Virus record (IMG/VR): IMGVR_UViG_3300017917_000894
Location: 1 to 64,000 of that record
Direction: 5' to 3' (one strand)
Length of the DNA stretch: 64,000 bases
Source of the DNA: a virus
Below, in pieces: positions 10,150 to 63,187 of this stretch (position 1 is the stretch's first letter; each line of letters opens with the position of its first letter). The notes under the pieces were generated by a model. That model made no database searches and was not told where the DNA came from. It saw only the letters and a program-made list of their open reading frames with translations. Both the position numbers and the translations under genes were made by a program.

Positions 10150-10651
10150 TTACGAGAGTGGGTCCGAAAAAGATGTAGTATTCTTTTTCGGACAAGAAGT
10201 CGAACACACACCCGCATTCGGTATGGACACTTTGTTTGTAACCGGTATCCAATCTATTACAACAATCGAATCAAAACTGCGTCCTCATATTAAACATATT
10301 TTCTTCGGAGCTAATCACAGCTTCAATCCACAGACACCAGAAGAACATAGTCGATGGGAAGAAATGATTTATCACTTTCTTGACAAAGATTATCTATGTT
10401 CATTAGATATTCCGATTAATCAAGTCGAAGAATTTCACGAAAGCGGCTATTGCGAATACGATAATTTTATTCCCCAGATCCGTGTACCAATTCCGTATAT
10501 TCGTCTGTGGAACTACAATACTATGTTAAAAATCGACGATAAAGATTTTAAAGCAACCAATCCAGGTGTATGGTCACACAGTCTACATACACTAATGGAT
10601 AGAAAAAATTTTACTGACTGGACAAAATACAAAGGGGATAAAATTCTATGA
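10139..10651 (+). CDS. hypothetical protein within the deazaguanine cluster
   Basis: GQEVEHTPAFG...HIFFGANHSF; ATG10139 preferred over 10088. Confidence 0.75.
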   Translation: MKRDYESGSEKDVVFFFGQEVEHTPAFGMDTLFVTGIQSITTIESKLRPHIKHIFFGANHSFNPQTPEEHSRWEEMIYHFLDKDYLCSLDIPINQVEEFHESGYCEYDNFIPQIRVPIPYIRLWNYNTMLKIDDKDFKATNPGVWSHSLHTLMDRKNFTDWTKYKGDKIL

Positions 10652-10827
10652 TTACATCTAAAGTTACAAAACAAGCCGACAAATTGAGCACCGAGGAGAA
10701 GTTCCTAAAGTTGCTCGAAGGTATTGACTGGAAGTTGTGGGAAATTTATAATATGATGAAAGACAACCTTCCAGAAAAGCCCAAGGCTCTGTCCAAGCCA
10801 AGAAATACTGCTAAAAAAGGTGAATAA
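10648..10827 (+). CDS. 59-aa hypothetical protein
   Basis: MITSKV...IDWKLWEIYNMM...KKGE; ATGA and TAATG overlaps; absent from the track. Confidence 0.65.
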   Translation: MITSKVTKQADKLSTEEKFLKLLEGIDWKLWEIYNMMKDNLPEKPKALSKPRNTAKKGE

Positions 10828-11030
10828 TGACCGAAGCTATTATCAAAGATAGTGCCGGATTTAGACTTTCTATTAAAAAGTGGAAATGTCTAAGACCTGC
10901 CGATATGAATGCTGTTGAATTTATTCAACAATCTAAAAATAAAGACGGCGAGGTTGATATGTCATCCACGTATCAATTTTTTATGACCGATAACGAAATT
11001 CAACTTCTTTGCAAAGAATTGATCAAATGA
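10827..11030 (+). CDS. hypothetical protein
   Basis: 67 aa, translationally coupled. Confidence 0.6.
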   Translation: MTEAIIKDSAGFRLSIKKWKCLRPADMNAVEFIQQSKNKDGEVDMSSTYQFFMTDNEIQLLCKELIK

Positions 11031-57542: not shown

Positions 57543-58556
57543 ATGAACCTTTTTAAGAAGGTAGCGTGTTTTACCGATATACATTTTGGTCTTAAATCAA
57601 ATAGCGCAATTCATTTGCGCGATTGTGAAGAATTTGTAGATTGGTTTATTGAAACTGCTAAAAAGGAAGGCTGCGAAACTGCAATCTTCCTAGGTGACTG
57701 GAGTCACAATCGAAACAGCTTAAATCTGTTTACATTAGATTCCAGTCTAAGATGTTTAGAAAAACTAGGAGCTGCTTTTGAGCAATTCTTTTGGTTTCCA
57801 GGTAACCACGACTTGTTTTATAAAGACAAGCGTGATATTCATAGTTCAGCATTTGGCCGACATATTCCAGGCGTCACTGTGGTTGAAAAAGTGAGCACCA
57901 TAGGTGATGTGACCTTAGTACCGTGGTTGGTAGGCGACGAATGGAAAACTATTAGTCAAGTCAAAAGCAAATACATGTTCGGACACTTTGAATTGCCCCT
58001 GTTCTACATGAACGCTATGGTACAGATGCCCGATCATGGCGAATTACAGGCCGAACATTTTGTACACCAAGACTATGTTTTCAGCGGACACTTCCATAAA
58101 AGACAAAGTCGCGGAAAAATTCACTATATTGGAAATGCCTTTCCCCATAACTTTTCAGATACCTGGGATGACGCTCGAGGTATGATGACGTTAGAATGGG
58201 GAGGGGAACCGAAATATATTAATTGGGACAATGCTCCTAAGTACAGAACTGTTAAATTATCCGACTTAATTGACAAAAAAGATACCATAATGAAGTCAAA
58301 AATGTATCTTAAAGTAAATTTAGACATCGATATCAGTTTTGAAGAAGCAAATCTTATCAAGGAGACCTTTACCAATGATCACGATGTACGAGAAATTAGC
58401 CTTATACAGGACAAAACAAACCTTGACGGGACGTATGAAGACAATCCTGACGCAAAGTTTGAAAGCGTCGATCAAATTGTTTCAGAACAACTAGTGAACA
58501 TCGATTCTACACAGATTGATAAAAAGATGCTACTAGAAATTTACAATAGCCTATGA
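57543..58556 (+). CDS. recombination nuclease subunit (gp47/Mre11/SbcD-like)
   Basis: DIHFG, LGD, GNHD, GHFE, SGHFH. Confidence 0.93.
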   Translation: MNLFKKVACFTDIHFGLKSNSAIHLRDCEEFVDWFIETAKKEGCETAIFLGDWSHNRNSLNLFTLDSSLRCLEKLGAAFEQFFWFPGNHDLFYKDKRDIHSSAFGRHIPGVTVVEKVSTIGDVTLVPWLVGDEWKTISQVKSKYMFGHFELPLFYMNAMVQMPDHGELQAEHFVHQDYVFSGHFHKRQSRGKIHYIGNAFPHNFSDTWDDARGMMTLEWGGEPKYINWDNAPKYRTVKLSDLIDKKDTIMKSKMYLKVNLDIDISFEEANLIKETFTNDHDVREISLIQDKTNLDGTYEDNPDAKFESVDQIVSEQLVNIDSTQIDKKMLLEIYNSL

Positions 58557-60334
58557 CATTCAAAATTAAAAATTTAACAGTGAAAAACTTTATGTCTGTG
58601 GGCAATCAAACACAGGCAGTGGACTTCGGTAAGGAACACCTAACATTAGTTTTAGGATCTAATTTAGACCTCGGTGGCGATGACACTGGTTCACGCAACG
58701 GTACAGGTAAGACTACTATTATTAACGCATTGAGTTATGCGCTCTACGGGCAGGCTTTGACAAACATCCGTAAAGAAAATCTTATTAACAAAACTAACGG
58801 TAAGGCCATGTTGGTCACTGTTGAATTTGAAAAGGGCGGTGCAAAATATCGAATTGAGCGTGGTCGTAAACCCAATGTACTAAAATTATTTGTCAACGAC
58901 AACGAAATTAAAAGCAAAGAAGAAGAAGACGAAAGCCAAGGAGATAGTAGAGAAACTCAAAAGGCAATCGAAGAAATGCTTGAAATGTCGCATACAATGT
59001 TCAAGCATTTAGTTGCACTAAACACCTATACAGAACCTTTTTTAAGTATGCGAGCCGCTGATCAACGCGAAGTCATTGAGCAACTGCTTGGTATTACGTT
59101 ACTTTCCGAAAAGGCAGAAGTACTTAAAAATCAAATCAAAGAAACAAAAGATAGTATTCAACAAGAAACTAACAAGATTGAAGCGATTAAAACTGCCAAC
59201 GAAAACGTGCAAAAAAGTATTGATAGCCTACAACTTAAAAGTAATGCCTGGGATAACAAGTATCAGCAAGACCTAGAAAATCTAGGAAAGGCAATTGTTC
59301 AATTAGAATCAGTAGATATCGATGCTGAGTTGCAGGCGCACGTTGCCTTAAAGGCGTGGGACGACGCTAACACCAAGATTCGTAATCTTAACAAACAAAA
59401 AGCTACACTAGAATCTGCGGTAATTCAAGCTGAGAAAACTCTTAAGAAATATAGAACAGAATTAGAAAGCCTAGGAAATAAGAAATGTCATGCCTGTGAT
59501 CAAGAACTTCACGACCACAAGCACGAAGAGATGACTGCTACTGCTACACAACATTATGAAGAAGCTTTCGAATACTTTCAGAAGATAAGTGCTCAACTTA
59601 AACAAATAGTAGAAGAAATAGGCGACGGAACACTTCCAAGTAAACCTAATACATTCTACGATACAGAAGCAGAAGCTCTAGGTCATAAAAATAATCTTGC
59701 TAACCTAGAACGAACGCTTCTAGGAAAAGCAGAAGAAAAAAATCCCTATGCTGAGCAAATTGAAGAACTAAAACAAAAAGCTATTCAAGAAATTAGCTGG
59801 GATGCTATTAATACATTGAGCAGATTAAAAGATCATCAAGAATTTTTACATAAACTACTGACTAACAAAGATAGTTTTATCCGTAAAAAGATTATTGATC
59901 AAAATTTAACCTACTTAAACAAGCGACTGACCTATTACATTGATAAACTAGGACTTCCGCATAAGGTAGTTTTTCAAAACGACCTTACCGTAGAAATTAC
60001 ACAACTTGGGCAAGACTTAGACTTCGATAATTTGAGTCGTGGAGAACGCAATAGACTAATCTTAAGTATGAGCTTTGCCTTCCGTGATGTATGGGAAGGA
60101 CTATATCAAAGCATTAATTTATTGTTTATCGACGAACTTGTAGATGCCGGCATGGATAGTGCTGGTGTAGAATCTGCTCTTGCTGTCCTAAAAAAGATGG
60201 CCAGAGAGAGAAATAAGAATATATACTTAATATCTCACAAGGATGAATTAGTAGGCAGAGTTAACAATGTACTTAGAGTAATAAAAGAGAATGGTTTTAC
60301 CAGTTATTCAAACGATGTCGAATATGTCGAATGA
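58553..60334 (+). CDS. recombination ATPase (gp46/Rad50/SbcC-like)
   Basis: NGTGKTT, zinc hook CHAC, LSRGE, LFIDE, ISH. Confidence 0.95.
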   Translation: MTFKIKNLTVKNFMSVGNQTQAVDFGKEHLTLVLGSNLDLGGDDTGSRNGTGKTTIINALSYALYGQALTNIRKENLINKTNGKAMLVTVEFEKGGAKYRIERGRKPNVLKLFVNDNEIKSKEEEDESQGDSRETQKAIEEMLEMSHTMFKHLVALNTYTEPFLSMRAADQREVIEQLLGITLLSEKAEVLKNQIKETKDSIQQETNKIEAIKTANENVQKSIDSLQLKSNAWDNKYQQDLENLGKAIVQLESVDIDAELQAHVALKAWDDANTKIRNLNKQKATLESAVIQAEKTLKKYRTELESLGNKKCHACDQELHDHKHEEMTATATQHYEEAFEYFQKISAQLKQIVEEIGDGTLPSKPNTFYDTEAEALGHKNNLANLERTLLGKAEEKNPYAEQIEELKQKAIQEISWDAINTLSRLKDHQEFLHKLLTNKDSFIRKKIIDQNLTYLNKRLTYYIDKLGLPHKVVFQNDLTVEITQLGQDLDFDNLSRGERNRLILSMSFAFRDVWEGLYQSINLLFIDELVDAGMDSAGVESALAVLKKMARERNKNIYLISHKDELVGRVNNVLRVIKENGFTSYSNDVEYVE

Positions 60335-60608
60335 ACAATTAGAAAAATACAAAGAACTATATTCTCAATTAATTGTTGAGCTTGTAGGGTTGCATAATAC
60401 GCATTTGTCTTTTATTAAACATGTCGGTCGAGATACCGGAACAGATACTCGACGGCATATTAGAGAAGTTGTACGTATTGCAACCGAGCTAAAAAGACAA
60501 GGTCAGAAAGTCTGTAAAGAAGAAATGGCCAATAAACGATTAGCTAAACAGCAGAAAAAAGAAAATAAAAATAAGAAAAAACGCAATGACTTGGTTATAT
60601 CAAAATGA
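60324..60608 (+). CDS. small basic helical protein
   Basis: Lys-rich C-terminus; ATG60324 or ATG60315 likely start. Confidence 0.6.
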   Translation: MSNEQLEKYKELYSQLIVELVGLHNTHLSFIKHVGRDTGTDTRRHIREVVRIATELKRQGQKVCKEEMANKRLAKQQKKENKNKKKRNDLVISK

Positions 60609-61011
60609 AGAAATATCTGTATTACCAGAAGATTGTGTAGGATTCGTTTATATTATTACAAACAAAACAAATAACAGAAAATACATTGGCAAAAAACTAG
60701 CAAAATTCTCAAAAACAACATATAAAACTGTAAAATTAAAAAACGGCACTAAAAAGAAAAAGAAAATTCGCAGCAAAATAGATTCAGACTGGCAAGAATA
60801 TTATGGCTCTAATGATCAATTAAACAAAGATGTAGCACAACTAGGCAAAGAAAACTTTATTAGAGAAATACTTTATTTTTGTAAATCAAAGGCAGAATGC
60901 AGTTATATCGAAGCAAGAGAACAATTTAGCAGACGAGTATTAGAATCTAACGAATATTATAACGGACACATACAAGTCCGTGTCCATGGCTCTCATATAT
61001 TAAAATCTTAA
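60586..61011 (+). CDS. minimal GIY-YIG family protein
   Basis: GFVYIITN...RKYIGKK, YYGS, IE, YYN; no C-terminal DNA-binding domain; Lys-rich insert. Confidence 0.85.
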   Translation: MTWLYQNEEISVLPEDCVGFVYIITNKTNNRKYIGKKLAKFSKTTYKTVKLKNGTKKKKKIRSKIDSDWQEYYGSNDQLNKDVAQLGKENFIREILYFCKSKAECSYIEAREQFSRRVLESNEYYNGHIQVRVHGSHILKS

Positions 61012-61463
61012 GGCACTTTTAGCGGTAATAAGCTCAGCGTAGGCCAATATCTTACGCCCTAAACCTGGACCTCGGGTCACAGGGATGGAAATCTCTCGCC
61101 GCCAAGAGTACTCAACCACTGCCCGAAAGGATGAAGATCGCTAACTAAGACCTGCGATTTGGTTGTTTGAAAAGGAAAAAATAGGCAAAAAGATGTAGGG
61201 TCTAACAAACGCCTACAGCATTTTATAACAAGATAGCGTTTATTATAAAATGTGCCGTTGAATAAAGACAGGATGAGCAGGTACCGGTCAACCGCCTGCG
61301 CTACAATAGTCCTAACGCTATGTGACTGTGCAACTCAGATGATGCCCAGCGTTCTTTGCCCTGTGCGGGCAAAGTGTGACCACTTAATCTAGATGATATT
61401 AAATCGCTTCGCTTTAAAAATGCTTCGAGCGTTAGCGAAGAAGCAAACGAACGCAGTTCGTTT
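61012..61463 (+). ncRNA. large structured non-coding element (candidate ncRNA, family not recognised)
   Basis: ORF-free and GC-richer than its flanks, with about 10 stems, a GAAA tetraloop and an 8-bp loop pseudoknot (ATAGCGTT 61233-40 / AACGCTAT 61314-21). Confidence 0.65.
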
Positions 61464-61470
61464 ATAAATA
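61463..61470 (+). promoter_or_regulatory. T4-type late promoter
   Basis: TATAAATA upstream of ORF 61528. Confidence 0.6.
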
Positions 61471-61527
61471 ATTAAATCAAATTTTGACTAATTAATTCAA
61501 ATAGTCTTATTGAGATAGGAATAAAAA

Positions 61528-62097
61528 ATGAAAATCAGCGAACTTATTGTCGAAGATCAAGTAGATGAACGAGTAGGGCAAGCTATCGGTAAGGCTTGGG
61601 GTGGAGCTATGCGAGGTGTCGGTGCAACTGCCGGTGGACTTGCAGGGTCGTGGGATGCAATGAAACAGGGTTATCGTGCAGGTAAAGCCGCAGTTTCTGG
61701 AAGAGCAAATTCCGATGATCAAGATCCGACATTGACTAGAAATCAATCAGGAACAACTTCTCCAGCTCAACAAGGATCAGCTACACAACAACCTGCAGGT
61801 TCGCAGTCTCAGACTTCTGCTCCTACCGGGCAGGCTGCAAGTACACCTAATCAATCTAATACTGGCACACCAGCTGGGGCTACTACAACTCCAGCAGCAA
61901 TGAAAGCCGCTGAAATTGTAAAAGATTTAGATGACGTTTGGGATAAAGCTACTGCTGATCAAGGAAGTCAAACAACTTCAGTTCAAGTTCAACAAAAAAT
62001 TAGAGCAATGGCAAAAGCCGCTGGCATGGCAGGTCAAGTTGTTGAACGTAAAAAGATTGCAGAATTTCACAGCCGTTTTTTAGGAATGACTATTTAA
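61528..62097 (+). CDS. low-complexity probable virion-internal protein
   Basis: MKISELIVE N-terminus, Gly/Ala-rich helix, Q/T/P/S-rich linker; late promoter. Confidence 0.65.
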   Translation: MKISELIVEDQVDERVGQAIGKAWGGAMRGVGATAGGLAGSWDAMKQGYRAGKAAVSGRANSDDQDPTLTRNQSGTTSPAQQGSATQQPAGSQSQTSAPTGQAASTPNQSNTGTPAGATTTPAAMKAAEIVKDLDDVWDKATADQGSQTTSVQVQQKIRAMAKAAGMAGQVVERKKIAEFHSRFLGMTI

Positions 62098-62330
62098 AAG
62101 AACGGCAGTCCAGAATTTTTAGTAGTTTCTAAATTTTCTTCAATTAATTTTGAAATTATAAGTCGTTCGTCTGTGGTTAAAAGATGTGCTTCAGAATAAC
62201 TTAGACTTCCTCTCATATACCAACAGAGTTTAACTAATTCTTCTTTAATGGCTTTTACATCTTTTTCGTAATCTTGAACTAATTTTTCAATTTCCGAAAT
62301 GTTTAGTTGTAAAAGCCTTAAGCGAAAAAA
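62094..62330 (-). CDS. -1 frameshift extension of the gp26-like gene (gp51-like / tail chaperone GT-like; RLRLLQL...LCWYMRG...LETTKNSGLPFF)
   Basis: 76 open codons in the -1 frame after T_TTT_TTC; the only ATG (62216) is mid-domain and lacks an SD. Confidence 0.75.
   Translation of the reverse strand, partial: FFRLRLLQLNISEIEKLVQDYEKDVKAIKEELVKLCWYMRGSLSYSEAHLLTTDERLIISKLIEENLETTKNSGLPFF
62250..62330 (-). other. -1 programmed ribosomal frameshift signal
   Basis: Heptamer U UUU UUC 62330-62324; 6 nt downstream, a perfect 10-bp stem GGCTTTTACA (62317-62308) / TGTAAAAGCC (62259-62250). Confidence 0.75.
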
Positions 62331-63187
62331 CTTGCGGCGTCAAAAGTTAACGGTACTTCAATAGTGTCACCGCTAAATCCTTTTTCTCGTAATTCGTCTG
62401 TAATTGGAACAACAATTGGTTTAACAGAGTTTACTTCTTTAAGTTGTTCAAGATGTGTTTGAACAACATTAAAAATACTTTTATCTGCATTATCAATAAA
62501 CTCTTTTATAAATTCTGGATTGTCTGTCGATCCTTGGCTAGAGTCGACTCTGTATATGCTAGCTCCAACCATTCCTATGGTAACTCGTGTTAATTTTGCA
62601 AAACTTTCTTTAAACACTTTTATTTTTTCTTCGTCACTGAGTGTATCTTCATTAGCTACCTGCATAATTTTTTGAGTTTCAAAACTCTGTATAGACATTT
62701 CAGTTACCTGTCGATAGTTAACTGGTCGAACAAATACTGTAAGATCATCGTTAATTGGCACATGAGGTACCCAAGTAATTCTATTCATTAGATCATCTAA
62801 TACGTAACGTAGGTCAACTACATACTCTAATTCAGTGTCGCCTATTTTTAACGGAGTAGTTAAACGTTCACCGTAGGTTGCAATACGTATAGCAATTAAA
62901 ATTACGTCCATGTCAATACTAGGTACAGACCATGCATCTCGAATATTTGGAATACAATTTTGAATAACATCGACTACAGCTTGACCATTCATTAATGCAT
63001 CGGGAATTTTTAACATTAACTCATCTTGTGCAGTCATTGAATAGACAGGATATTCACCATTTTCAGAAACATTTAGAGATCCTTCTGGCCAATACTTGCC
63101 TTCACTGGGCAATCGAATATAAATTTTTGGTTGCCTCATGAATGCAGTTAATGGGTTTTGTGGTCTAACTTGCCCAGGTGATGTCAT
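62318..63187 (-). CDS. baseplate hub assembly protein / tail assembly chaperone (gp26-like)
   Basis: RQPKIYIRLPSEG...MTAQDE...PDALMNG...DMDVILIAIRIATYG; ends in the FF motif. Confidence 0.8.
   Translation of the reverse strand: MTSPGQVRPQNPLTAFMRQPKIYIRLPSEGKYWPEGSLNVSENGEYPVYSMTAQDELMLKIPDALMNGQAVVDVIQNCIPNIRDAWSVPSIDMDVILIAIRIATYGERLTTPLKIGDTELEYVVDLRYVLDDLMNRITWVPHVPINDDLTVFVRPVNYRQVTEMSIQSFETQKIMQVANEDTLSDEEKIKVFKESFAKLTRVTIGMVGASIYRVDSSQGSTDNPEFIKEFIDNADKSIFNVVQTHLEQLKEVNSVKPIVVPITDELREKGFSGDTIEVPLTFDAASFFA

What the first reader, a model, noticed from the sequence alone, without database searches (positions are those of the whole stretch)
60586..61463. Minimal GIY-YIG protein followed by a ~450-nt pseudoknotted non-coding element: candidate novel RNP or RNA-associated nuclease system
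SEEN: this is the only long ORF-free stretch in a gene-dense window; it starts right at the GIY-YIG stop codon and is almost entirely base-paired. Stems: GCGTAGG/CTTACGC (61037-57); CCTG-GACC/GGTC-CAGG (61064-83); CTCT/AGAG; CAACCA/TGGTTG (61113-65), enclosing a CC-GAAA-GG tetraloop and GATCGC/GCGATT; GGCA/TGCC (61184-256), enclosing TGTAGG/CCTACA and GCATTTTATAA/TTATAAAATGT; AGGAT/GTCCT, enclosing GCAGGT/GCCTGC; CTTTGCCC/GGGCAAAG. Long-range pairs: loop ATAGCGTT (61233-40) with AACGCTAT (61314-21), and GGTCACA (61075-81) or loop GGTCA (61286-90) with TGTGACC (61375-81) or TGTGACT (61321-27). G-U pairs and a GNRA loop favour a + strand RNA. The protein is only the catalytic-type domain, has no obvious Arg right after YIG, and carries a very basic insert (KTVKLKNGTKKKKKIRSK). 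KNOWN: GIY-YIG homing endonucleases normally use appended DNA-binding domains, and nuclease-plus-structured-RNA pairs (IscB/omegaRNA, TnpB/reRNA) are RNA-guided. INFERENCE: the RNA may be a scaffold or guide for this protein, or an unrecognised large ribozyme-like RNA. I could not match it to group I/II introns, RNase P or tmRNA.
Basis: partly seen in the sequence, partly recalled or inferred. Interest (0 to 1): 0.85.

Follow-up and report, generated by a model that had tools for sequence, protein, structure and literature searches.

The report
Large knotted phage RNA behind nuclease
The gene-free stretch behind a small DNA-cutting-enzyme gene of this uncultured T4-like lake phage encodes a real, knotted non-coding RNA of about 445 bases; only its first third is catalogued, it shows one short word twice, and its job is unknown.

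Summary
Window 61,019-61,463 (+) encodes a real structured RNA. Its first 137 nt score 115.6 bits against the orphan Rfam motif Polynucleobacter-1 (RF01718). The other ~300 nt match no Rfam family but are conserved in over 200 IMG/VR phage loci. Three pseudoknots and most stems covary.

The RNA sits at a fixed place: gp47, gp46, small ORF, GIY-YIG, RNA, then a minus-strand baseplate-hub gene. In the RNA-seeded sample, 125 of 125 loci with enough upstream DNA have the GIY-YIG gene directly in front.

The nuclease does not need the RNA. Its family stands alone in 509 cultured-phage records. One complete 162-kb relative has the nuclease but no detectable RNA. No nuclease residue tracks the RNA's variable word.

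Two identical 7-nt boxes (AGATGAT here) flank a hairpin. They change together at least 46 times on a tree. I found no complement in the RNA or in ten phage genomes.

The RNA is real, the guide/RNP reading is not supported, and the function is unknown. Earlier notes show the scan met this family on other genomes.

The parts
60586..61011 (+). GIY-YIG nuclease gene, 141 aa, catalytic domain only. It is a conserved neighbour of the RNA, not a shown part of it.
   Evidence: Pfam PF19835 SegE_GIY-YIG: E 2.6e-32, residues 3-129 on profile positions 1-123 of 123. 104 full-length orthologues of 141-159 aa are 59-85% identical. Best fold match is I-TevI 1mk0, which is weak (E 0.39, prob 0.77).
61019..61463 (+). 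Full-length structured RNA of about 445 nt (extended Polynucleobacter-1, or 'twin-box', RNA).
   Evidence: An nhmmer profile finds it in 137 of 144 sequences searched. 118 unique full-length copies average 65% identity to the window. Covariation. G-U 595 against A-C 63 cells.
61032..61168 (+). 5' domain, equal to Rfam RF01718 Polynucleobacter-1.
   Evidence: 115.6 bits against a gathering score of 37, model positions 1-141 of 141.
61022..61102 (+). Pseudoknot 1: GCGGU 61,022-26 pairs with GCCGC 61,098-102. It starts upstream of the Rfam boundary.
   Evidence: 5 of 5 pairs covary and 96-97% of cells are paired.
61184..61255 (+). Middle domain: a GGC/GCC closing stem around two variable hairpins. 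The second hairpin's loop carries the 5' strand of pseudoknot 2.
   Evidence: 117 of 118 homologues fold into two hairpins. 113 of 118 leave the pseudoknot strand unpaired in the loop. Median z is -3.8.
61233..61321 (+). Pseudoknot 2: AUAGCGU 61,233-39 pairs with ACGCUAU 61,315-21.
   Evidence: 7 of 7 pairs covary and 96-100% of cells are paired.
61257..61313 (+). Core: GUUGA 61,257-61 pairs with UCAAC 61,288-92 (pseudoknot 3). That helix crosses stems 61,270-74/61,309-13 and 61,277-81/61,295-99. The core contains the near-invariant GGUACCGGUCAACCGCC.
   Evidence: helices 1-3 are 80-99% paired, with changes on both sides.
61334..61343 (+). Twin box 1: CUC followed by the word AGAUGAU (61,337-43).
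61354..61374 (+). Conserved hairpin between the two boxes (CUUUGCCC/GGGCAAAG).
   Evidence: 97-100% of cells are paired in 118 sequences. In many homologues the stem is extended by GUCA/UGAC.
61388..61397 (+). Twin box 2: UCU followed by the same word AGAUGAU (61,391-97).
   Evidence: The best MI partner of every variable box-1 position is the same position of box 2 (0.91, 0.28, 0.60 and 0.37 bits).
61422..61444 (+). Stem GCUUC/GAAGC closing a loop with a tandem AGCG..AGCG motif.
   Evidence: Compensatory GCUUC/GAAGC against GCUCU/AGAGC in homologues. MAFFT statistics are weak (44-88% paired).
61445..61463 (+). Terminal 8-bp hairpin, the inferred 3' end of the RNA.
   Evidence: 82-98% of cells are paired and 7 of 8 pairs show two or more pair types. 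The terminator scan did not call it, because no U-tract follows.
61463..61470 (+). TATAAATA box, inferred to be a late promoter for the downstream gene. It is not part of the RNA.
   Evidence: One of only 4 copies in the window. Another lies 41 nt upstream of the minus-strand baseplate-hub gene. The consensus itself is recalled, not taken from a tool.

Best explanation
Window 61,019-61,463 (+) is the gene of a stable, trans-acting, protein-independent structured RNA of about 445 nt.

Shown:
- It consists of the Rfam Polynucleobacter-1 domain, a two-hairpin middle domain and an uncatalogued core. Three pseudoknots lock these together.
- It lies on the + strand, directly behind the GIY-YIG stop codon, at the 3' end of the gp47-gp46-ORF-GIY-YIG gene row.

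Inferred:
- It is co-transcribed with that row, because there is no room for a promoter of its own.
- It ends at the conserved terminal hairpin, just before a late-promoter-like box that serves the next gene.
- The knotted body is a rigid scaffold. It displays two identical single-stranded words (CUC-AGAUGAU and UCU-AGAUGAU) on either side of a hairpin.
- These words are a two-site recognition element. A reader acting in trans binds both sites, or compares them.

The GIY-YIG nuclease is a syntenic neighbour that works without the RNA. It is not RNA-guided.
For: RNA reality and anatomy:
- RF01718 scores 115.6 bits.
- The whole ~445 nt is conserved in 137 of 144 sequences searched, and in 69 of 73 informative protein-seeded loci.
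- Covarying helices and three pseudoknots.
- G-U 595 against A-C 63 cells.

Position:
- In the RNA-seeded sample, 125 of 125 loci with upstream DNA have the GIY-YIG ORF ending within -14 to +48 nt of the RNA start.
- gp46 is present in 103 of 109 loci that reach far enough upstream. The hub gene lies on the opposite strand downstream in 114 loci.
- The downstream + strand gene is shared in only 21 of 144 loci. TATAAATA sits between the RNA and that gene. Both argue against a 5' UTR element.

Boxes:
- About 200 loci carry two identical words, and ten different words were seen. The one exception is L116.
- The word changes at least 46 times on a tree built without the box columns.
- Sites lying between the boxes share at most 0.22 bits of MI with box position 1, against 0.91 bits for its twin in box 2. 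Simple linkage therefore does not explain the identity.
- No complement exists in cis: no exact 7-mer at a fixed place within 1.5 kb in 174 RNAs, and 6-mers give 31 own-word matches against 48 control matches.
- Box spacing modulo 3 is flat (46/54/59), so there is no mini-ORF.

Nuclease independence.
Against: - There are no expression data at all. No RNA run holds the sequence, so the transcript, its ends and its stability are all inferred.
The ten phage genomes searched (four of them 99-100% complete) contain only the boxes themselves plus non-orthologous hits inside genes.
- The single-sequence folding energy is unremarkable (z -1.55).
- The terminal hairpin lacks a U-tract.
- Every RNA copy seen here has the nuclease gene within about 1.3 kb upstream. 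A functional tie in this clade is therefore not excluded.
- The co-evolution test had little power: only 1-2 independent pairs lay on well-supported branches.
- Model R1 misses subfamily C. The 'nuclease without RNA' genome could therefore hold a very divergent copy.
Confidence: 0.55

Rival explanations
1. The RNA and the GIY-YIG protein form a ribonucleoprotein. The RNA scaffolds, guides (through the box words) or inhibits the nuclease, in the manner of omega-RNA/IscB or of a type III antitoxin RNA.
For: Linkage is tight: 125 of 125 loci in the RNA-seeded sample. The nuclease has no DNA-binding domain of its own and carries an invariant basic beta-hairpin. The RNA has one short variable word, present twice.
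Against: - The family stands alone in 509 cultured-phage records. No RNA-sized gap follows the gene in Melnitz, P-HM1 or phiM12, and RF01718 is absent from those genomes.
- Four close orthologue loci, including a complete 161,882-bp genome, lack the RNA.
- Genes are inserted between the two in at least 8 loci.
- No nuclease column tracks the word: the highest MI is 0.17 bits, and none tracks word position 1, which flips at least 36 times on the protein tree.
- A 7-nt word is too short to specify a genomic target (inference).
- Earlier notes report the RNA without the nuclease in bacterial islands. I did not test this.
Confidence: 0.1
2. The GIY-YIG gene is a free-standing homing endonuclease of the Seg type. 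It settled beside a conserved RNA gene, as T4 segB sits among the tRNA genes (recalled). The box words are its fast-evolving DNA target or immunity sites.
For: The match is to the Pfam SegE-type domain. Homing endonucleases favour conserved RNA genes (recalled). The box words evolve fast.
Against: - The gene is not sporadic. It holds a fixed syntenic place, and gp46 is present in 103 of 109 loci that reach far enough upstream.
- It is under strong conservation, with 72 invariant columns among 15 diverse orthologues.
- It lacks the DNA-binding domain of Seg enzymes.
- There is no word-nuclease association.
- This reading does not explain why the two words must be identical.
Confidence: 0.1
3. 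The element acts in cis. It is either a 3' UTR that stabilises or regulates the gp47-gp46-GIY-YIG transcript, or a 5' leader or riboswitch of the downstream gene (the tentative 2010 label for the motif).
For: The RNA starts 11 nt after the stop codon, so a terminating ribosome would touch pseudoknot 1 (sequence). Weinberg et al. 2010 list the motif as possibly cis-regulatory (table passage seen).
Against: - Downstream genes differ in identity and strand: the window's gene is shared in 21 of 144 loci, and the minus-strand hub gene appears downstream in 114 loci.
- A late-promoter-like box lies between the RNA and the next gene.
- About 445 nt with three pseudoknots and twin co-varying boxes is far more than a stabiliser needs (inference).
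- The upstream gene can be swapped for an inserted gene.
Confidence: 0.15
4. It is a self-assembling or catalytic 'ornate' RNA. Either it forms RNA-only multimers like ROOL, GOLLD and OLE, or it is an unrecognised ribozyme, with the twin boxes as inter-subunit contacts or processing sites.
For: It is large, multi-pseudoknotted and phage-borne, like GOLLD and ROOL (abstract of PMC12286853 seen in the listing). It has invariant core segments.
Against: It matches none of these families in Rfam. Identical words cannot pair with each other, and no complement exists in the RNA. No homologue lacks the segment between the boxes, among all copies not cut by a contig end.
Confidence: 0.1

Closest known systems
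Polynucleobacter-1 RNA motif (Rfam RF01718; Weinberg et al. 2010, PMC2864571)
   Same: Window 61,032-61,168 matches the whole model at 115.6 bits. The habitat label 'fresh water/estuary' and the unknown function also fit (table passage seen).
   Different: The catalogued motif has 141 positions. Here it is the 5' third of an RNA of about 445 nt. One of its hairpin loops pairs with 5 nt that lie upstream of the Rfam boundary. Sister subfamilies keep the core and the boxes but replace this domain. Its carriers here are T4-like phages. The tentative 5' UTR reading does not fit.
Large ornate bacterial and phage RNAs (GOLLD, ROOL, OLE, raiA, HEARO)
   Same: A large, multi-domain, pseudoknotted, phage-associated RNA of unknown function, recognised by covariation.
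   Different: It has no Rfam match to any of them. It holds a fixed place in a replication and recombination gene row rather than near tRNA genes (recalled). It also has twin co-varying boxes.
RNA-guided nucleases with structured RNAs (IscB/TnpB omega-RNA or reRNA)
   Same: A small nuclease gene followed directly by a structured RNA that has one short variable segment.
   Different: The nuclease is GIY-YIG, not RuvC/HNH. Protein and RNA occur apart. The variable word is 7 nt, duplicated and internal. There is no transposon context, and synteny is fixed.
T4 Seg-type and I-TevI GIY-YIG homing endonucleases
   Same: A catalytic domain of the SegE type. I-TevI is the best, though weak, fold match.
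   Different: There is no DNA-binding domain. The gene is not sporadic, and it is conserved at 59-85% identity in a fixed place. The same family is annotated 'NAD synthetase' in cyanophage records, which looks like a misnomer.
Small RNAs with duplicated identical seed motifs (such as the C-rich motifs of RsaE/RoxS; recalled)
   Same: Two identical short single-stranded words are presented by one RNA.
   Different: The RNA here is ten times larger. The word varies between close relatives while staying identical within each RNA. No target is known.

Membership tests
Rfam RF01718 Polynucleobacter-1 | Covariance-model score at or above the curated gathering score (37 bits) over the full model. | tested here: met
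   115.6 bits, model positions 1-141 of 141, window 61,032-61,168 +.
Rfam RF01718 Polynucleobacter-1 | A 5' UTR or cis-regulatory placement upstream of one conserved gene (a tentative label, not a strict criterion). | tested here: not met
   The window's downstream gene is shared in 21 of 144 loci. The opposite-strand hub gene appears downstream in 114 loci. A TATAAATA box lies in between.
GIY-YIG nuclease superfamily, SegE-type domain (Pfam PF19835) | Profile score above the curated cut-off (25 bits). | tested here: met
   112.1 bits, E 2.6e-32, full profile.
GIY-YIG nuclease superfamily, SegE-type domain (Pfam PF19835) | The catalytic Tyr, Tyr, Arg, Glu and Asn residues are present (motif recalled from I-TevI). 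| tested here: inconclusive
   Y22, Y33, R93, R111, E109, E112 and N126 are invariant in 15 orthologues. No residue-level superposition was possible: the model's residues 108-141 have pLDDT below 50, and the fold match is weak.
Seg-type or I-TevI homing endonucleases | An appended DNA-binding domain. | tested here: not met
   The protein is 141 aa and the catalytic profile covers residues 3-129. Orthologues are 141-159 aa.
Seg-type or I-TevI homing endonucleases | Sporadic, mobile distribution among related genomes. | tested here: not met
   Synteny is fixed behind gp46, which is present in 103 of 109 loci that reach far enough upstream.
RNA-guided nuclease systems (IscB/TnpB type) | Obligate co-occurrence of the nuclease and its RNA. 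| tested here: not met
   There are 509 cultured-phage records with the nuclease family. The three opened have no RNA-sized gap, and RF01718 is absent from them. Complete genome G001 has the nuclease and no RNA by two models.
RNA-guided nuclease systems (IscB/TnpB type) | A variable guide segment whose complement is the target. | tested here: inconclusive
   The only variable word is 7 nt and duplicated. No complement was found in cis or in ten phage genomes. Host DNA could not be searched.
Group I/II introns, RNase P RNA, tmRNA | A match to the family model; for an intron, an interrupted host gene. | tested here: not met
   No Rfam match up to E 10 apart from RF01718 and noise. ARAGORN finds no tmRNA or tRNA. 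The flanking ORFs are unrelated genes.
Type III toxin-antitoxin RNA | Tandem repeats of about 36 nt upstream of an endoribonuclease toxin gene (recalled). | tested here: not met
   The RNA lies downstream of the gene. Its repeats are 7-13 nt words 47-62 nt apart, inside a 445-nt knotted RNA.

The most novel reading that the evidence does not exclude
The twin boxes are a programmable two-site specificity element. The knotted RNA would use two copies of one rapidly changing 7-13-nt word to bind a nucleic-acid target outside the phage genome, such as a host RNA or DNA, or a rival phage. Alternatively, the two words would let a polymerase or nuclease compare two sites. Either would be a new class of phage RNA effector whose specificity is rewritten by paired point changes. 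It might still act together with the neighbouring recombination nucleases (GIY-YIG, gp46/gp47) in this clade.
Probability: 0.12. Interest if true: 0.85.

Novelty: new variant of a known kind. Interest (0 to 1): 0.6.

Why it matters
Large, multiply knotted non-coding RNAs of unknown function are rare. Past examples have led to new biology.

This work shows that an orphan motif catalogued in 2010 is only the first third of a roughly 445-nt RNA. That RNA is carried at one fixed place by hundreds of uncultured T4-like lake phages, some with genomes above 340 kb.

The RNA's two short words stay identical to each other while changing dozens of times. This is a sharp and unusual evolutionary signal, and it gives experiments a precise handle: mutate one box, then both.

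The work also removes a tempting but unsupported idea, that a minimal GIY-YIG nuclease is RNA-guided.

My four literature searches found no paper describing the full-length RNA. Searches returned only the 2010 motif paper and papers that, by title and abstract, concern other RNAs.

Tried and rejected
- **Expression.** No RNA holder was listed for window 60,586-61,530. All 23 runs listed are DNA or other, kept as contigs. I did not use read laying, because contigs cannot show RNA ends or rare deletion forms.
- **Cultured relatives of the RNA.** blastn of the 462-nt stretch against 50,697 phage records found no match.
- **Bacterial copies.** One genome-contig scan with the 5'-domain pattern gave only one hit, in a Bifidobacterium record. 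I took it for a chance match and did not check it. The cap then barred a second scan, so I could not test the earlier notes that the RNA also lies in bacterial islands without the nuclease.
- **Cis partner for the boxes.**
  - A G-U-tolerant 'complement' about 160 nt upstream is only the conserved GUUGUUU strand of the Rfam closing stem. It does not covary, so I rejected it.
  - No exact 7-mer complement or third copy of the word lies at a fixed place within 1.5 kb.
  - Exact 6-mer complements give 31 own-word matches against 48 control matches.
  - U-rich tracts after box 1 pair with some words but not consistently (read by eye).
- **Phage-encoded trans reader.** The reverse complement of the word plus RRR-T was searched in ten virus records. 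It finds the boxes themselves and a few hits, no more than the reversed-pattern control. The nine extra sites I fetched mostly lie in open reading frames and are not orthologous, apart from one identical pair.
- **Genome-wide use of the word.** AGATGAT occurs 15 times in the window, against 11.3 expected.
- **Mini-ORF between the boxes.** Rejected, because the spacing modulo 3 is flat.
- **Box motifs considered by eye and dropped.** CsrA sites, k-turns or C/D boxes, -10 promoter hexamers, anticodon-loop complements and stop-codon mimicry each fail for several of the ten words (no tool test).
- **Nuclease-word co-evolution.** No signal, and low power.
- **Other checks.**
  - The sigma-70 scan shows no promoter between the stop codon and the RNA.
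  - The profile search of solved structures gave only a marginal hit to a mobile-intron protein (E 0.013).
  - The RNAalifold consensus on raw MAFFT alignments was poor, so helices were scored directly.
Full report
**Setting.** The window is the first 64 kb of a 72,293-bp IMG/VR virus record that CheckV rates 20% complete. Around the finding lie these genes:
- a gp47-like phosphoesterase (57,543-58,556);
- a gp46-like SMC/AAA ATPase (58,553-60,334);
- a 105-aa basic ORF with no family (60,291-60,608);
- the 141-aa GIY-YIG ORF (60,586-61,011);
- the ORF-free stretch;
- a 189-aa low-complexity ORF (61,528-62,097);
- a minus-strand T4-type baseplate-hub gene (62,318-63,187).

This is a T4-like phage of about 35-40% G+C. 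The ORF-free stretch rises to about 45%.

**Observation.** The stretch 61,012-61,506 is the longest one without an ORF of 70 aa or more. Folding the single sequence is not exceptional (z -1.55), so the case rests on comparison with homologues. Rfam gives one clear hit: RF01718 Polynucleobacter-1 at 61,032-61,168, 115.6 bits against a gathering score of 37, over the whole model. Nothing else in 60,900-61,600 rises above noise.

**Homologues.**
- A 17-nt motif from the Rfam domain found 22 IMG/VR stretches. Of these, 15 were real (10 distinct sequences) and 7 were chance hits inside genes.
- In the real ones the whole ~445 nt is alignable, not just the Rfam part.
A broader 5' pattern found 17.
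- An nhmmer profile hit 137 of the 144 sequences held at that point.
- This gave 118 unique full-length copies, 54-77% identical to the window.

**Structure.**
- The first new helix pairs GCGGU (61,022-26), upstream of the Rfam boundary, with GCCGC (61,098-102) in a hairpin loop of the Rfam domain.
- The second new helix pairs GUUGA (61,257-61) with UCAAC (61,288-92), crossing two stems of the core.
- The two variable hairpins are real. 117 of 118 homologues fold that segment into two hairpins.
- The proposed GGUCACA/UGUGACC pairings show no covariation.
- The tool count on alignment A2 (41 sequences) gives 80.2% paired against 72.0% shuffled. The covariation score is 0.316 against 0.179 shuffled and at most 0.165 with slid partners.
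- G-U cells outnumber A-C cells 595 to 63, so the RNA is on the + strand.

**Subfamilies.**
- Protein-seeded loci show sister forms. They keep the core GGUACCGGUCAACCGCC and the 3' part but have another 5' domain (subfamily B).
- A more distant form is subfamily C.
- RF01718 does not detect subfamily B even in a complete genome that carries it.

**Linkage to the nuclease.**
- In the RNA-seeded sample, 125 of 125 loci with enough upstream DNA have a GIY-YIG orthologue ending right at the RNA. The other 12 are cut by contig ends.
- The protein is 141-159 aa and 59-85% identical to the window's. It has 72 invariant columns among 15 diverse members, and the basic stretch is among them.
- In the reverse direction, I took the best 80 of 587 protein-matched loci. 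Seven are cut too short to judge.
  - 66 have the RNA by nhmmer.
  - 3 more have the subfamily C form.
  - 4 (L157, L158, L196, L223) have a 334-383-aa ORF right after the nuclease gene and no RNA within 2-3 kb.
- In at least 8 of these loci, a 272-356-aa gene sits between nuclease and RNA.
- L158 belongs to a complete 161,882-bp genome (direct terminal repeats, CheckV 100%).
  - RF01718 finds nothing there.
  - My model R1 finds only 19.5-bit and 13-bit hits, which lie in coding frames and lack boxes.
  - The positive control scored 128.7 bits.
  - R1 misses subfamily C, so a very divergent copy is not excluded.
- More distant homologues of the nuclease occur in 509 cultured-phage records: Melnitz at 53% identity, cyanophages at about 37%, often labelled 'NAD synthetase'.
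- In Melnitz, P-HM1 and phiM12 the gene has other neighbours and no RNA-sized gap, and RF01718 is absent from all three genomes.
- Synteny in the lake clade is fixed. gp46 is present in 103 of 109 loci that reach far enough upstream. The hub gene lies on the minus strand downstream in 114 loci. The window's downstream gene is shared in only 21 of 144.
- The linkage therefore reflects one conserved gene row, not a mobile cassette or an obligate pair.

**Twin boxes.**
- I first noticed two short direct repeats that change together, before reading earlier notes.
- In the window they are CUC-AGAUGAU (61,334-43) and UCU-AGAUGAU (61,388-97), on either side of the hairpin 61,354-74.
- About 200 loci carry two identical words. 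The ten words seen are AGAUAAU, GGAUAAU, GGAUGAU, GGAUGAA, ACAUGAA, AGAUGAU, AGAUGAA, GCAUAAU, AGAUGAG and AGACGAA. The sample is biased toward the first two, because the pattern selected for them.
- One locus, L116, is mixed (G in box 1, A in box 2).
- The identity often extends three positions further upstream of the CUC/UCU triplet.
- The best MI partner of each variable box-1 position is its twin in box 2. Sites lying between the boxes are far less associated.
- On a tree built without the box columns, the word changes at least 46 times. Position 1 changes 33 times, position 5 changes 11 times, position 7 changes 7 times and position 2 changes 3 times.
- The near-identical pair L014 and L181 differ in both boxes at the same position.

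**Explanations for the boxes that I tested and rejected.**
- A translated mini-ORF: spacing modulo 3 is 46/54/59.
- A complement within the RNA or within 1.5 kb.
- Genome-wide use of the word.
- A complement at an orthologous place in ten phage genomes.
- Association with nuclease residues.

What reads the boxes remains unknown. The transition-rich pattern and the strict identity suggest base pairing with a partner outside the phage genome, or a mechanism that compares the two sites. This is inference.

**Ends and expression.** The RNA starts 11 nt after the stop codon, which leaves no room for a promoter. It ends in a covarying 8-bp hairpin. A TATAAATA box follows at 61,463-70. It is one of four in the window, and another precedes the hub gene. 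I read this, by recall of T4 biology, as a late promoter for the next gene. The RNA would then be the 3' end of the early or middle gene row and not a leader. No RNA run holds the sequence, so all of this is inferred.

**Protein.**
- The AlphaFold model has pLDDT 72.9 and is poor after residue 107. It shows the basic stretch as a long beta-hairpin at residues 40-66.
- The best solved fold is I-TevI's catalytic domain, and the match is weak (E 0.39, prob 0.77).

**Comparison and novelty.**
- The 5' third is a member of RF01718.
- The full RNA, its pseudoknots, its subfamilies and the twin boxes are in no paper that my four searches found. The only paper naming the motif is Weinberg et al. 2010. 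I saw only its table and text passages; supplements were closed.
- Earlier notes of this scan describe the same family on other genomes and reach similar verdicts.
- They also report copies without the nuclease in bacterial islands, which I could not test.
- I file this as a new variant of a known kind: a known orphan motif shown to be part of a much larger RNA.

**Verdict.** The RNA is real and widespread, and it has an unusual evolutionary signature. Its function is unknown, and the RNA-guided-nuclease reading is unsupported.

Noticed in passing
window 10,652-11,008: This is the second ORF-poor stretch (357 nt with no ORF of 70 aa or more). It folds better than shuffles (z -3.69). It is probably two short overlapping-stop/start ORFs: one starting near 10,648, read by eye from the sequence, and one at 10,827-11,030 (67 aa).
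   Followed up: partly
window 61,427-61,439: The loop closed by the GCUUC/GAAGC stem carries a tandem AGCG..AGCG motif (GAGCGUUAGCGAA). The motif is kept in most homologues while the stem covaries. Its role is unknown.
   Followed up: no
window 60,586-61,011; phage records: This GIY-YIG family is annotated 'NAD synthetase' in many cyanophage and rhizobiophage GenBank records and in PHROG 447. Pfam places it as a SegE-type GIY-YIG domain, so the name looks like a propagated misannotation.
   Followed up: partly
L149, L178, L187, L190, L201 (between the GIY-YIG stop and the RNA): Some relatives carry an extra 272-356-aa gene inserted between the nuclease gene and the RNA. Its N-terminus reads MKLVFAGCSFTAG in L187. 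Other relatives (L157, L158, L196, L223) have a 334-383-aa membrane-like ORF there and no RNA.
   Followed up: partly
window 60,291-60,608: This 105-aa ORF has a very basic C-terminus and no Pfam or PHROG family. It overlaps the GIY-YIG start by 23 nt. A single-sequence search found it in only 29 of 150 related loci.
   Followed up: partly
window 3,650; 21,809; 61,463 (+); 63,228 (-): TATAAATA occurs only 4 times, against 8.8 expected. Two of the four copies checked lie 41-58 nt upstream of the next gene's start (the 189-aa ORF and the baseplate hub). This fits T4-type late promoters.
   Followed up: partly
L003, L019, L168: This divergent RNA variant lacks one hairpin of the Rfam domain. Its twin words (GGAUAAU) are preceded by GAA and UCA instead of CUC and UCU.
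   Followed up: no
L116: This is the only RNA seen with unequal boxes (box 1 GGAUAAU, box 2 AGAUAAU). It may be an intermediate of a paired change.
   Followed up: no
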